Shown here piece by piece: positions 54,701-57,700 of a stretch of 64,000 nucleotides of DNA. Numbering within the stretch: the stretch's first letter is position 1; the number at the start of each line of letters is the position of its first letter. Made by a program: the position numbers. The stretch is taken from NCBI RefSeq assembly GCF_030013595.1, contig NZ_CP122768.1. One strand, given 5' to 3'. The DNA comes from Escherichia coli (GTDB lineage Bacteria; Pseudomonadota; Gammaproteobacteria; Enterobacterales; Enterobacteriaceae).

Positions 54701-57700
54701 GCTATATTCAGGAAGTGGTTTATATCGATAACAACGTTCCCCAGTGTTCGTCTCTGGAGCATGAAAGCCCGCCCGATACCTTCCCCGAGCCAGGTAAAAT
54801 TTCGAAAGATGGTTATCGTGTCTGGTTAACATCGCATAACGATTTAGGCATTATCCGTTACATGGTTGCCATGGGAACGGCACATTATGTCGTCATGATC
54901 GACCCCGCTTCCTTTATTGATGTCATTCCCTATAGCTCATGGCAAATTGATGCCGCCATTATTGGCAATGCCCATAACGTTGTGATAACCAGCAGCGATG
55001 AAATTGCTCAGGGAATTATTACCAGACTACAAAAAACACCCGGTGAGCATATCGAAAATAATGGAATCATTTACGATATCCTGCCCTTCCCGGAAATGAA
55101 TATTTCGATCATCACCTGGGCTTCAACGAAAATGTTGCAGAAAGACTGGCATCGGCAAGTCTTTATTTGGTTACCGCTCGGGTTGGTGATTGGCCTGCTG
55201 GCAGCGATGTTTGTGCTGCGTATTTTGCGCCGTATCCAGTCACCGCATCATCGGCTGCAGGATGCTATCGAAAATCGTGATATTTGCGTGCACTATCAGC
55301 CGATTGTCTCCTTAGCCAATGGCAAAATTGTCGGTGCTGAGGCACTGGCGCGCTGGCCGCAGACAGACGGTAGTTGGTTATCACCAGATAGTTTTATTCC
55401 GCTGGCACAGCAAACGGGCCTTTCTGAGCCATTGACGCTACTGATTATAAGAAGCGTCTTTGAAGATATGGGCGACTGGCTGCGTCAGCATCCACGGCAG
55501 CATATTTCGATCAATCTTGAATCCACCGTGCTCACCTCGGAAAAAATCCCGCAATTGCTGCGTGAAATGATCAATCACTATCAGGTTAATCCCAGACAGA
55601 TCGCGCTTGAACTCACTGAACGCGAGTTTGCCGATCCGAAAACCAGCGCCCCGATAATTTCTCGCTACCGGGAGGCGGGCCATGAAATTTATCTTGATGA
55701 TTTTGGTACGGGGTATTCAAGTTTAAGTTATTTACAGGATCTGGATGTCGACATTCTGAAGATCGATAAATCTTTCGTTGATGCGCTGGAATATAAAAAT
55801 GTCACGCCGCATATCATCGAAATGGCAAAAACACTGAAACTGAAAATGGTAGCGGAGGGAATCGAAACCAGTAAACAAGAAGAGTGGTTACGCCAGCATG
55901 GCGTGCACTACGGTCAGGGCTGGCTCTACAGCAAGGCATTACCGAAAGAAGATTTCTTACGCTGGGCCGAGCAACATTTGTGAATTGTAGGGCTGACGGC
56001 ACGCCGCACAGCCCGTCACGCTACCTATTCGTCGATGATTGACTCGAATCCGCCATAAATCATTCGCTTACCATCAAACGGCATGGACTCGCCGAACTCT
56101 TTCATCCGTGGGTCCGACATCATCTTTTGATTAGCAGCGTCGCGGACCTCTTTTGAAGGGTATTCAATCCAGCTAAAGACAACCTCTTCATTCTCTTCAG
56201 CTTTTACCGCCATACGAAAATCGGTCACTTTGCCATCCGGTACATCGCTGGCCCAGCATTCGACAATACGAAGCGCGCCAAACTCTTTAAACAATGGCGC
56301 AGCCTTAGCAGCCATTTCCCGATAGGCATCCTTTTTATCGGCAGGAACGGCAACCACAAAACCATCAACATACTTCATCAGACATACCTCCGAAGCGTAC
56401 TGCGCAGCCAGACAATTCTTGCGACGTCAGTTGTGGTTAAAGTTTAGCCATATTGGGATTTTTTGACGAAACGGAGGGAGGCAGAAATGGGTGGGGGCCC
56501 TGCCAGCTACATCCCGGCACACGCGTCATCTGCCTTGGCTGCTTCCTTCCGGACCTGACCTGGTAAACAGAGTAGCGTTGCGGGAGAACCAACAGAGCCC
56601 CCATTGAGAGCGTTGAGAACCAACGCGCAGGCGCATTATCACTGCTGCCCCGGCTAATTGCAACCCATTGCGTGCCGGATGCTGGTTTCTTGCGCAATGC
56701 GACTTCACTCGGGCGTTTTTCCAGATTATGCTGAAAAATTACCTCAGGAAGAAAAGATGGAAAAAGAAGATTCATTTCCCCAACGCGTCTGGCAAATCGT
56801 CGCCGCTATTCCCGAAGGCTATGTCACCACTTACGGTGATGTGGCGAAACTGGCAGGATCGCCCCGCGCCGCGCGCCAGGTGGGCGGTGTGTTAAAGCGT
56901 CTCCCTGAAGGCAGCACCTTACCCTGGCATCGGGTGGTTAATCGCCACGGCACAATTTCGCTAACCGGACCGGATTTACAGCGTCAACGACAGGCATTAC
57001 TGGCAGAAGGTGTGATGGTATCGGGAAGCGGGCAAATCGACTTGCAGCGTTATCGCTGGAACTACTAACCCTCTCCGGGCGGAGAGGGTTAACTGCGCTT
57101 AATATTGCGTAGGAGCTGGAACTGCCGAAGACGGATTCACCTGAGTTGGTGAAGTCGAAGGTACAGTAGTCGTTGCGCCACCGCTGGCCTGAACCGGCAC
57201 GGCGGTTTGCTGTACCGGCACCAATGTCAGGTCGGCTTTAGTTCCGCCCTGGTTGATCACCGGCTGAACGGTATCGGTAATAAATACCAGTTTGTCATTC
57301 ACGGTAATCGCCGCACTCAACAGAATACGCGCATTCGGCTGAACATCTGCCGGGTTAAATGGCAGAACAAAGCTGAATGGTGACTGTTTGCCTTCGGTAC
57401 GCACCGCTTTCTGCGCCAGTACTTTTGACGGTGCATCGGCTAACGACGCGTCAGAAAGTGTCACGGTCAGCACAGCATCAGGCGGCAGTGCGACTTTCTG
57501 ACGGATCCAGACGGTACCGGAGACATTCGGTTGCTGGATAGCAGGTTGTTGTGTTGCTGAAATAGACGTATTTGCAGCCGGTGCTGGCGTCTGAATATCC
57601 GCGCTTTTATCTGCGCAAGCCGCCAACGCAATCGCAACCGCTAAACCACTGGCCATGTGCACGAGTTTCATTCACTTCTCCTTATTATCAATGCACCAGC

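What the first reader, a model, noticed from the sequence alone, without database searches (positions are those of the whole stretch)
56437..56775. ffs (4.5S SRP RNA) is overlapped by two spurious minus-strand ORFs and lies close to the atl start
Track ORFs 56437..56775 and 56526..56708 overlap the 4.5S RNA gene (56489-56602) and should not be called as proteins. The atl start also needs trimming to Met8 (56679).
Basis: partly seen in the sequence, partly recalled or inferred. Interest (0 to 1): 0.25.

Follow-up and report, generated by a model that had tools for sequence, protein, structure and literature searches.

The report
SRP RNA gene, chance ORFs, atl start

Summary
It is 114 nt, identical to K-12 b0455, and scores 68.1 bits against Rfam RF00169 (cut-off 40). 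The minus-strand ORFs 56437..56775 (112 aa) and 56526..56708 (60 aa) exist and overlap it on the same strand.

Both ORFs look spurious. They have no Pfam match and no codon periodicity, and they break up outside Escherichia. Random sequence of this composition gives about 58 ORFs of at least 112 aa per 64 kb. The 112-aa ORF's ATG lies upstream of every reported ffs transcript 5' end. A few old GenBank records do call it a 'hypothetical protein'.

The atl claim is only half right. Met8 (56679) reproduces the K-12 record (129 aa), but PGAP aa from ATG 56757. In 30 species with atl beside ffs, only ATG 56757 and its CAGGAA Shine-Dalgarno are conserved. The Met8 start is unusable in 20 of 23 non-Escherichia species. 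The 26-codon extension shows no coding periodicity, and solved Atl homologues begin at about 56757.

The extension DNA appears to hold an ffs upstream element and the atl promoter. Everything here is already known biology, with one small annotation correction.

The parts
56489..56602 (-). ffs, mature 4.5S (small SRP) RNA, 114 nt
   Evidence: It is 114/114 identical to K-12 b0455. Rfam RF00169 scores 68.1 bits over 56498-56594. It folds as one long hairpin of -57 kcal/mol with a GGAA tetraloop. Across 8 distinct enterobacterial variants 99.4% of cells are paired, with 3 compensatory pairs.
56603..56628 (-). 5' leader of pre-4.5S RNA, removed by RNase P; main transcription start about 56628 (-26)
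   Evidence: PMC5499578 reports RNA-seq 5' ends mainly at -26 relative to the mature end. RNase P processing is described in PMC7049720. The position fits the -10 hexamer ending at 56635. The block is near-invariant across 30 species.
56635..56663 (-). ffs sigma-70 promoter: -35 TTGCAA (56663-56658), 17-nt spacer, -10 GATAAT (56640-56635), followed by a G+C-rich discriminator
   Evidence: It is the only promoter-like hit in 56300-57150. Both hexamers are invariant in the 30-species alignment. The TTG that opens the 136-codon atl ORF (56658) is part of the palindromic -35 hexamer.
56678..56698 (.). Conserved non-coding block A, GATGCTGGTTTCTTGCGCAAT (contains the 'Met8' ATG and the palindrome TTGCGCAA), at -50 to -70 from the ffs start; likely an ffs upstream element
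   Evidence: Most columns are at least 80-95% conserved, although the surrounding reading frame is not kept. In Pluralibacter it stays next to ffs when a ~650-bp insertion moves atl away. Its function is inferred.
56704..56732 (+). Putative atl promoter: -35 TTCACT (56704-56709), 17-nt spacer, -10 TATGCT (56727-56732); predicted start about 56739
   Evidence: The blocks CTTCAC and TATGCTGA are conserved with fixed spacing in 30 species. In Pluralibacter they travel with atl (TTCACA-17-TATCCT). It scores 8/12 in E. coli, just under the scanner's threshold. Inferred; no TSS data were reached.
56745..56750 (+). Shine-Dalgarno CAGGAA of atl, 6 nt before ATG 56757
   Evidence: It is conserved in nearly all 30 species. 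Duplex energy with the 16S 3' end is -4.3 kcal/mol, against +0.6 for the Met8 ATG.
56757..57068 (+). atl (ybaZ), alkyltransferase-like DNA base-flipping protein; best-supported CDS of 103 codons plus stop
   Evidence: PGAP CDS WP_000409911.1. PF01035 scores 94.2 bits over ORF residues 40-119. The start is ATG in 29 of 30 species and the ORF is exactly 103 codons in 29 of 30. Conservation by codon position is 0.915/0.961/0.577. The PWHRV motif is visible in the translation. Solved homologues 2KIF and 3GVA align from ORF residues 37-38.
56679..56756 (+). 26-codon 'N-terminal extension' of the K-12 atl model (Met8 to codon 33); most likely untranslated
   Evidence: It is annotated as coding in K-12. 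It is closed by stops, out of frame or lacks the ATG in 20 of 23 non-Escherichia species. Conservation by codon position is flat at 0.765/0.765/0.740. No Pfam or PDB homologue covers it.
56437..56775 (-). Spurious 112-aa ORF covering all of ffs, its promoter and the antisense of the atl start
56526..56708 (-). Spurious 60-aa GTG ORF covering the 5' 77 nt of ffs and its promoter

Best explanation
The locus is the ordinary E. coli divergent pair ffs / atl. ffs (56489-56602, minus strand) is transcribed from a sigma-70 promoter (TTGCAA-17-GATAAT, 56663-56635), starting about 26 nt upstream of the mature end. RNase P removes the leader, and the 114-nt hairpin binds Ffh through its GGAA-tetraloop domain IV to form the signal recognition particle. 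The 112-aa and 60-aa minus-strand ORFs are not genes. They are stop-free runs of a kind expected by chance, laid over an RNA gene, its promoter and the antisense of the atl 5' end. atl is read on the other strand from ATG 56757, behind a conserved CAGGAA Shine-Dalgarno, and gives a 103-aa alkyltransferase-like protein with PWHRV (Trp in place of the catalytic Cys). That protein flips O6-alkylguanine out of the helix and hands the lesion to nucleotide excision repair. The 78 nt between the K-12 'Met8' start and ATG 56757 are regulatory DNA: an ffs upstream element followed by the atl promoter (TTCACT-17-TATGCT). Shown: the identity and structure of ffs, the non-conservation of the ORFs, and the conservation pattern around atl. 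Inferred: which atl start the ribosome uses, the atl promoter, and the role of block A.
For: ffs: Rfam scores 68.1 bits. The sequence is 114/114 identical to K-12 b0455. The hairpin fold is -57 kcal/mol with z = -3.15. There are 3 compensatory base-pair changes (3:108, 27:80, 33:73) and 99.4% pairing, against 43-51% in slid controls. The region is present in 5424 of 5426 complete E. coli genomes. For the promoter and leader, the single promoter-like hit agrees with the published -26 5' ends (PMC5499578).

ORFs: neither has a Pfam match. The 112-aa ORF is intact only in E. coli, E. whittamii and Escherichia sp. E1V33. It is truncated in E. albertii (59 aa), Escherichia sp. MOD1 (82 aa) and Salmonella (53 aa), and no ORF of 30 aa or more remains in its place in most Citrobacter. 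The 60-aa ORF occurs only in Escherichia. Conservation by codon position in the ORF112 frame is flat at 0.789/0.804/0.799. About 58 such ORFs per 64 kb are expected by chance. The ORF112 ATG sits at -173, upstream of all reported ffs 5' ends (-26, about -127, about -153). The ORF60 GTG at -106 is absent from the main transcript. RefSeq annotates only ffs and the MGMT-family CDS in this stretch.

atl start: PGAP aa from 56757. The start is ATG in 29 of 30 species (GTG in one) and the ORF is 103 codons in 29 of 30. Met8 is unusable in 20 of 23 non-Escherichia species, with TAA/TAG/TGA 1-9 codons upstream of the shared ATG in most. Periodicity is 0.915/0.961/0.577 in the core against 0.765/0.765/0.740 in the extension. 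Shine-Dalgarno energy is -4.3 against +0.6 kcal/mol. vpAtl residue 2 and S. pombe Atl1 residue 3 align to ORF residues 38 and 37. The Pluralibacter insertion separates the Met8 block from atl while the TTCACA-17-TATCCT pair stays with atl.
Against: The curated K-12 record and UniProt ATL_ECOLI keep the 129-aa form. The extension is open in every Escherichia examined and in 3 other species, so a lineage-specific longer isoform is not excluded. The Shine-Dalgarno at 56757 is only moderate: about 20% of all ATGs in the window score as well. No transcription-start, ribosome-profiling or N-terminal peptide data for atl could be reached. The proposed atl promoter matches only 8 of 12 consensus positions in E. 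coli. A few GenBank submitters did call the 112-aa ORF, although only as 'hypothetical protein'.
Confidence: 0.88

Rival explanations
1. atl really starts at Met8 (56679), as in the K-12 reference and, giving a 129-aa protein with an Escherichia-specific N-terminal tail.
For: This is the K-12 RefSeq annotation, 475982..476371. The exact 129-aa sequence is on at least 1000 contigs under the name DNA base-flipping protein / ATL_ECOLI. The frame is open from 56679 in all 7 Escherichia sequences, Salmonella diarizonae, C. sedlakii and one Citrobacter MAG.
Against: There is no Shine-Dalgarno (+0.6 kcal/mol). The extension shows no codon periodicity. Twenty of 23 other species cannot use this start. 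The ATG lies inside a DNA block that stays with ffs when atl is moved 650 bp away in Pluralibacter. The conserved -35/-10 pair lies downstream of it, so the predicted mRNA would not contain it. Solved homologues lack any such tail. A 33-codon open stretch is expected by chance roughly one time in four (own estimate from the window's stop-codon frequency, not a tool result).
Confidence: 0.08
2. The Met8 ATG opens a short upstream ORF (about 19-26 codons) that ends at or just before the atl start, and regulates atl by translational coupling.
For: In the Citrobacter freundii group the frame from the conserved ATG runs to a TAA one codon before the atl ATG. In Kosakonia and Phytobacter it ends at a TGA eight codons before. 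The ATG itself is conserved in most species.
Against: Kluyvera has CTG at this position. One-nucleotide indels change the frame between genera. There is no codon periodicity and no Shine-Dalgarno. In Pluralibacter the block is 650 bp and one gene away from atl. In E. coli itself the frame does not terminate but runs into atl.
Confidence: 0.03
3. One of the minus-strand ORFs (112 aa or 60 aa) is a real, young, Escherichia-specific protein translated from the minor long ffs precursors.
For: Minor pre-4.5S 5' ends at about -127 and -153 were reported and would include the ORF60 GTG at -106. The 112-aa ORF has been deposited as a hypothetical protein in four Escherichia/Shigella genomes.
Against: The ORF112 ATG at -173 is upstream of all reported 5' ends. 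Neither ORF is conserved, shows periodicity, has a family match or is kept by RefSeq annotation. Most of each ORF is the very stable 4.5S hairpin, which is bound by Ffh. Their length is what chance gives.
Confidence: 0.01

Closest known systems
E. coli K-12 ffs (b0455), 4.5S RNA; Rfam RF00169 Bacteria_small_SRP
   Same: The 114-nt sequence is identical. The neighbours are the same (pdeB, ybaA, ffs, atl, ybaY, tesB) in inverted orientation. The promoter and leader sequence are the same.
   Different: Nothing within the gene. Four single-base differences from K-12 lie in the flanks of the 400-nt comparison: two upstream of ffs and two downstream.
E. coli Atl / YbaZ (UniProt ATL_ECOLI, b0454), alkyltransferase-like protein
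   Same: It is the same protein. The exact 129-aa and 103-aa forms are both in public databases. It has the PF01035 domain and the PWHRV motif.
   Different: Only the annotated start differs: 129 aa in K-12 and UniProt against 103 aa in PGAP. The comparative evidence here favours 103 aa.
Vibrio parahaemolyticus Atl (PDB 2KIF/2KIM) and S. pombe Atl1 (PDB 3GVA)
   Same: These are single-domain ATL proteins of about 100-108 residues that align end to end with residues 34-136 of the ORF, with E = 2e-28 and 2e-17.
   Different: They have no counterpart of the 26-33 residue N-terminal extension in the K-12 model.
'Hypothetical protein' calls over ffs (E. coli P12b AFG39350.1, S88 CAR01799.1, O25b:H4 ANK05803.1, S. 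dysenteriae WRSd3 ESU77918.1)
   Same: It is the same 112-aa ORF. The K-12 allele differs from the window's at 2 residues.
   Different: These are submitter gene-caller outputs on one contig each. RefSeq/PGAP does not keep them.

Membership tests
Bacterial small SRP RNA (4.5S RNA, Rfam RF00169) | Scores at or above the family's curated gathering threshold with the covariance model, full length | tested here: met
   68.1 bits against 40, model positions 1-97 of 97, E = 1.2e-13.
Bacterial small SRP RNA (4.5S RNA, Rfam RF00169) | Single long hairpin with the conserved domain IV apex (GNRA tetraloop flanked by the conserved internal loops that bind Ffh) | tested here: met
   The GGAA tetraloop and the GGUCAGGUCCGGAAGGAAGCAGCC core align to the model consensus. 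The MFE hairpin is -57 kcal/mol.
Bacterial small SRP RNA (4.5S RNA, Rfam RF00169) | Base pairs maintained by compensatory change among relatives | tested here: met
   Three pairs change on both sides and 99.4% of cells are paired. Slid controls give 0-1 such pairs and 43-51% paired. Diversity is low (8 variants, 98% identity), so this is supportive rather than strong.
Bacterial small SRP RNA (4.5S RNA, Rfam RF00169) | Identity with the experimentally characterised E. coli 4.5S RNA gene | tested here: met
   114/114 identical to K-12 b0455.
Bacterial small SRP RNA (4.5S RNA, Rfam RF00169) | Binds Ffh and supports co-translational targeting | not testable with these tools
   This follows from sequence identity with the characterised RNA.
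Alkyltransferase-like (ATL) proteins | MGMT/AGT C-terminal DNA-binding domain (PF01035) present | tested here: met
   94.2 bits against a cut-off of 27, profile positions 2-81 of 81.
Alkyltransferase-like (ATL) proteins | Catalytic Cys of the PCHRV motif replaced (Trp in most ATLs) | tested here: met
   LPWHRVVN is read directly in the translation. The PWHRV motif is described for E. coli ATL in PMC10779285.
Alkyltransferase-like (ATL) proteins | Single-domain protein of about 100-110 aa without the AGT N-terminal domain | tested here: met
   The conserved ORF is 103 codons. It aligns end to end with 2KIF and 3GVA.
Protein-coding gene (for the ORFs 56437..56775 and 56526..56708) | Reading frame kept open in related species | tested here: not met
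   The ORFs are broken or absent outside a few Escherichia genomes.
Protein-coding gene (for the ORFs 56437..56775 and 56526..56708) | Third-codon-position excess of substitutions | tested here: not met
   Conservation is 0.789/0.804/0.799 in the ORF112 frame outside ffs and the atl core, against 0.915/0.961/0.577 for atl. The ORF60 frame was not scored separately.
Protein-coding gene (for the ORFs 56437..56775 and 56526..56708) | Similarity to any known protein family | tested here: not met
   No Pfam family at E <= 0.1.
Protein-coding gene (for the ORFs 56437..56775 and 56526..56708) | Start codon present on a known transcript | tested here: not met
   The ORF112 ATG is at -173 and the reported ffs 5' ends are at -26, about -127 and about -153. 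The ORF60 GTG at -106 is present only on the minor long precursors.

The most novel reading that the evidence does not exclude
The 21-bp block GATGCTGGTTTCTTGCGCAAT (56678-56698, palindrome TTGCGCAA) is as conserved across genera as the ffs promoter and is retained beside ffs when atl is displaced. It may be an undescribed protein-binding site (for example a Fis-type or other activator site at -50 to -70) controlling SRP RNA synthesis, and possibly coupling it to the divergent atl promoter.
Probability: 0.15. Interest if true: 0.3.

Novelty: already known. Interest (0 to 1): 0.08.

Why it matters
It matters only for annotation quality. ORF callers should mask ffs; the 112-aa ORF has leaked into GenBank as a hypothetical protein a few times. 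The K-12 / UniProt model of Atl (129 aa) probably carries 26 untranslated codons, which affects constructs, tags and structural work on E. coli Atl. PGAP's 97-nt ffs feature is 17 nt shorter than the mature RNA. No new biology is implied.

Tried and rejected
1. Experimental evidence for the atl start or transcription start. Full-text searches for ybaZ with 'start codon', 'transcription start site' and 'ffs' gave nothing relevant. The TetRP start-site supplement has no ybaZ/b0454 entry. The retapamulin preprint has no supplement held. The id I tried from memory for a published E. coli dRNA-seq TSS paper is not held.

2. Exact look-up of the window's own alleles of the two ORFs found nothing. 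This is uninformative, because the window's allele is rare: the best E. coli match is 99.9%. The K-12 alleles were therefore looked up instead (after one call with wrong coordinates).

3. The terminator-like hit at 56611-56597 was rejected. It straddles the leader and the mature 5' end of ffs and is just the foot of the 4.5S hairpin region.

4. I considered a uORF reading of the Met8 ATG and a real-protein reading of the ORFs. Both are kept only as low-probability rivals.

5. Shine-Dalgarno energy alone does not discriminate strongly, since the ORF112 ATG also has -4.3 kcal/mol. The weight therefore rests on conservation.

Full report
**What is there**

The window is E. coli chromosome in the orientation opposite to K-12 (about 474-479 kb). 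The 701 bases around the finding match 5424 of 5426 complete E. coli genomes at 95-99.9% identity. The gene order pdeB(+), ybaA(-), ffs(-), atl/ybaZ(+), ybaY(-), tesB(+) mirrors K-12.

Rfam's bacterial small SRP RNA model (RF00169) matches 56498-56594 on the minus strand at 68.1 bits, against a gathering score of 40. Alignment with K-12 shows that the complete 114-nt mature 4.5S RNA, 56602 down to 56489, is identical to b0455. The only differences in a 400-nt comparison are four flanking bases.

The RNA folds into the expected single hairpin with a GGAA tetraloop (-57 kcal/mol, z = -3.15). A scan of the species-representative genome collection with a 32-nt ffs core returned 34 enterobacterial loci. 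These gave eight distinct full-length ffs variants. On the hairpin, 99.4% of cells pair and three pairs (3:108, 27:80, 33:73) change on both sides. Slid controls give 43-51% pairing and 0-1 such pairs.

**The two ORFs**

Both are in the mechanical ORF list at exactly the stated coordinates: 56437..56775 (-, ATG, 112 aa) and 56526..56708 (-, GTG, 60 aa). They overlap ffs in sense. The first covers all of ffs, its leader, its promoter and the antisense of the atl start. The second covers the 5' 77 nt of ffs and the promoter.

- **Length.** Their length carries no information. Random sequence with the window's composition yields about 58 ORFs of at least 112 aa and about 349 of at least 60 aa per 64 kb.
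- **Family match.** Neither matches any Pfam family.
- **Conservation.** In the 30-species alignment the 112-aa ORF is intact only in E. coli, E. whittamii and one unnamed Escherichia. It is cut to 59 aa in E. albertii, 82 aa in another Escherichia and 53 aa in Salmonella, and no ORF of 30 aa or more remains in its place in most Citrobacter. The 60-aa ORF exists only in Escherichia.
- **Codon periodicity.** Outside ffs and the atl core, conservation in the ORF112 frame is flat across codon positions, at 0.789/0.804/0.799.
- **Transcripts.** Published RNA-seq places pre-4.5S 5' ends mainly at -26, with minor ends near -127 and -153 (PMC5499578). The ORF112 ATG is at -173, upstream of all of them. 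The ORF60 GTG, at -106, is absent from the main transcript.
- **Annotation.** RefSeq annotates only ffs and the MGMT-family CDS here.

The K-12 allele of the 112-aa ORF sits in GenBank as a 'hypothetical protein' in E. coli P12b, S88 and O25b:H4 and in Shigella dysenteriae WRSd3, on one contig each. For comparison, Atl is on at least 1000 contigs.

**The ffs promoter**

The only sigma-70-like hit in the region is TTGCAA-17-GATAAT at 56663-56635 on the minus strand. Both hexamers are invariant across genera. A G+C-rich discriminator follows it. With the published -26 start (window 56628) the geometry is standard. RNase P then removes the leader (PMC7049720; PMC5499578). The TTG that opens the mechanical 136-codon atl ORF (56658) is simply part of this palindromic -35 hexamer.

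**The atl start**

Trimming to Met8 (56679) gives 129 aa, which is exactly the K-12 / UniProt model. PGAP, in the closest complete genome, instead aa from ATG 56757. Both forms are abundant in public databases. Six lines of evidence favour 56757.

1. **Conserved start and length.** Thirty of the aligned sequences, including the window, have atl directly beside ffs. The codon aligned to 56757 is ATG in 29 and GTG in one, and the ORF from it is exactly 103 codons in 29. The exception is one Kluyvera with a 1-nt deletion.
2. **Met8 is unusable elsewhere.** It fails in 20 of 23 non-Escherichia species. There is a TAA, TAG or TGA 1-9 codons upstream of the shared ATG in most, a frame shift in others, and CTG instead of ATG in Kluyvera.
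3. **Codon periodicity.** Conservation by codon position is 0.915/0.961/0.577 in the 103-codon core, but 0.765/0.765/0.740 in the 26-codon extension.
4. **Shine-Dalgarno.** A conserved CAGGAA precedes 56757 (-4.3 kcal/mol). Nothing precedes 56679 (+0.6).
5. **Solved homologues.** Pfam PF01035 covers ORF residues 40-119. The solved ATL structures 2KIF and 3GVA align from their residues 2-3 to ORF residues 37-38.
6. **A natural experiment in Pluralibacter.** About 650 bp, carrying a 154-codon ORF, is inserted between ffs and atl. The conserved block that contains the 'Met8' ATG (GATGCTGGTTTCTTGCGCAAT, window 56678-56698) stays next to ffs. The blocks CTTCAC and TATGCT, 17 nt apart, move with atl.

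I therefore read the extension as regulatory DNA. It holds an ffs upstream element at -50 to -70, then the atl promoter (TTCACT 56704-56709, TATGCT 56727-56732). The predicted transcription start near 56739 lies downstream of both Met8 and Met14.

This conclusion is inferred. I could reach no transcription-start, initiation-profiling or N-terminal peptide data for atl. The extension is also open in all Escherichia examined, so a lineage-specific long isoform cannot be excluded. I give it about 8%.

**What Atl is**

The protein has the MGMT C-terminal DNA-binding domain with PWHRV, that is, Trp in place of the catalytic Cys. This is the defining ATL signature. According to the review PMC10779285, E. 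coli ATL has no transferase, glycosylase or endonuclease activity and interacts with UvrA and UvrC.

**Verdict**

Everything is known biology and the only value is annotation hygiene. Interest is low.

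Noticed in passing
window 56678-56698: A 21-bp block, GATGCTGGTTTCTTGCGCAAT (palindrome TTGCGCAA), is conserved across enterobacterial genera about as well as the ffs promoter itself. 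It stays beside ffs when atl is displaced in Pluralibacter. It may be an upstream activator or Fis-type site for ffs. No known motif was assigned.
   Followed up: partly
window 56497-56511 (+), inside ffs: A Salmonella ChIP-seq study lists the 'marbox' GCCCTGCCAGCTACA for a MarA/RamA/SoxS peak assigned to ybaZ (PMC10268841). The sequence lies inside the 4.5S RNA gene. The peak may reflect the very highly transcribed ffs rather than regulation of ybaZ.
   Followed up: partly
window 56498-56594 vs 56489-56602: PGAP annotates ffs as the 97-nt Rfam model span. That is 8 nt short at the 5' end and 9 nt short at the 3' end of the mature 114-nt RNA annotated in K-12.
   Followed up: yes
window 56729 and 56755 (-): The published minor pre-4.5S 5' ends at about -127 and -153 (PMC5499578) would start inside the atl promoter and at the atl start codon, running antisense. 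This could mean transcriptional interference between ffs read-in and atl.
   Followed up: no
L029 (Pluralibacter MAG) about 3130-3595: A 154-codon ORF (MSHYLNVIDV...; perhaps starting at MINTLPQ) is inserted between ffs and atl. It was not characterised.
   Followed up: no
window 57066-57068 (atl stop): Some E. coli carry a 111-aa Atl variant (P0020, 48 contigs). It starts at MEKED and reads 8 codons past the usual stop (…RWNYYPSPGGEG).
   Followed up: no
window 39800-39864 (-), 26038-26121 (-), 31800-31877 (-): Other Rfam matches in the window are the DnaX programmed-frameshift element (96.8 bits), sroB sRNA (81.1 bits) and naRNA4/CssrE (72.6 bits).
   Followed up: no
window 57804..58748 (+) and 54427..55983 (+): The mechanical ORFs over-extend two neighbours relative to K-12. 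tesB is 314 aa from TTG 57804 against 286 aa, and the ORF translation contains MSQALKNLL at the position that would give 286 aa. pdeB is 518 aa against 516 aa.
   Followed up: no
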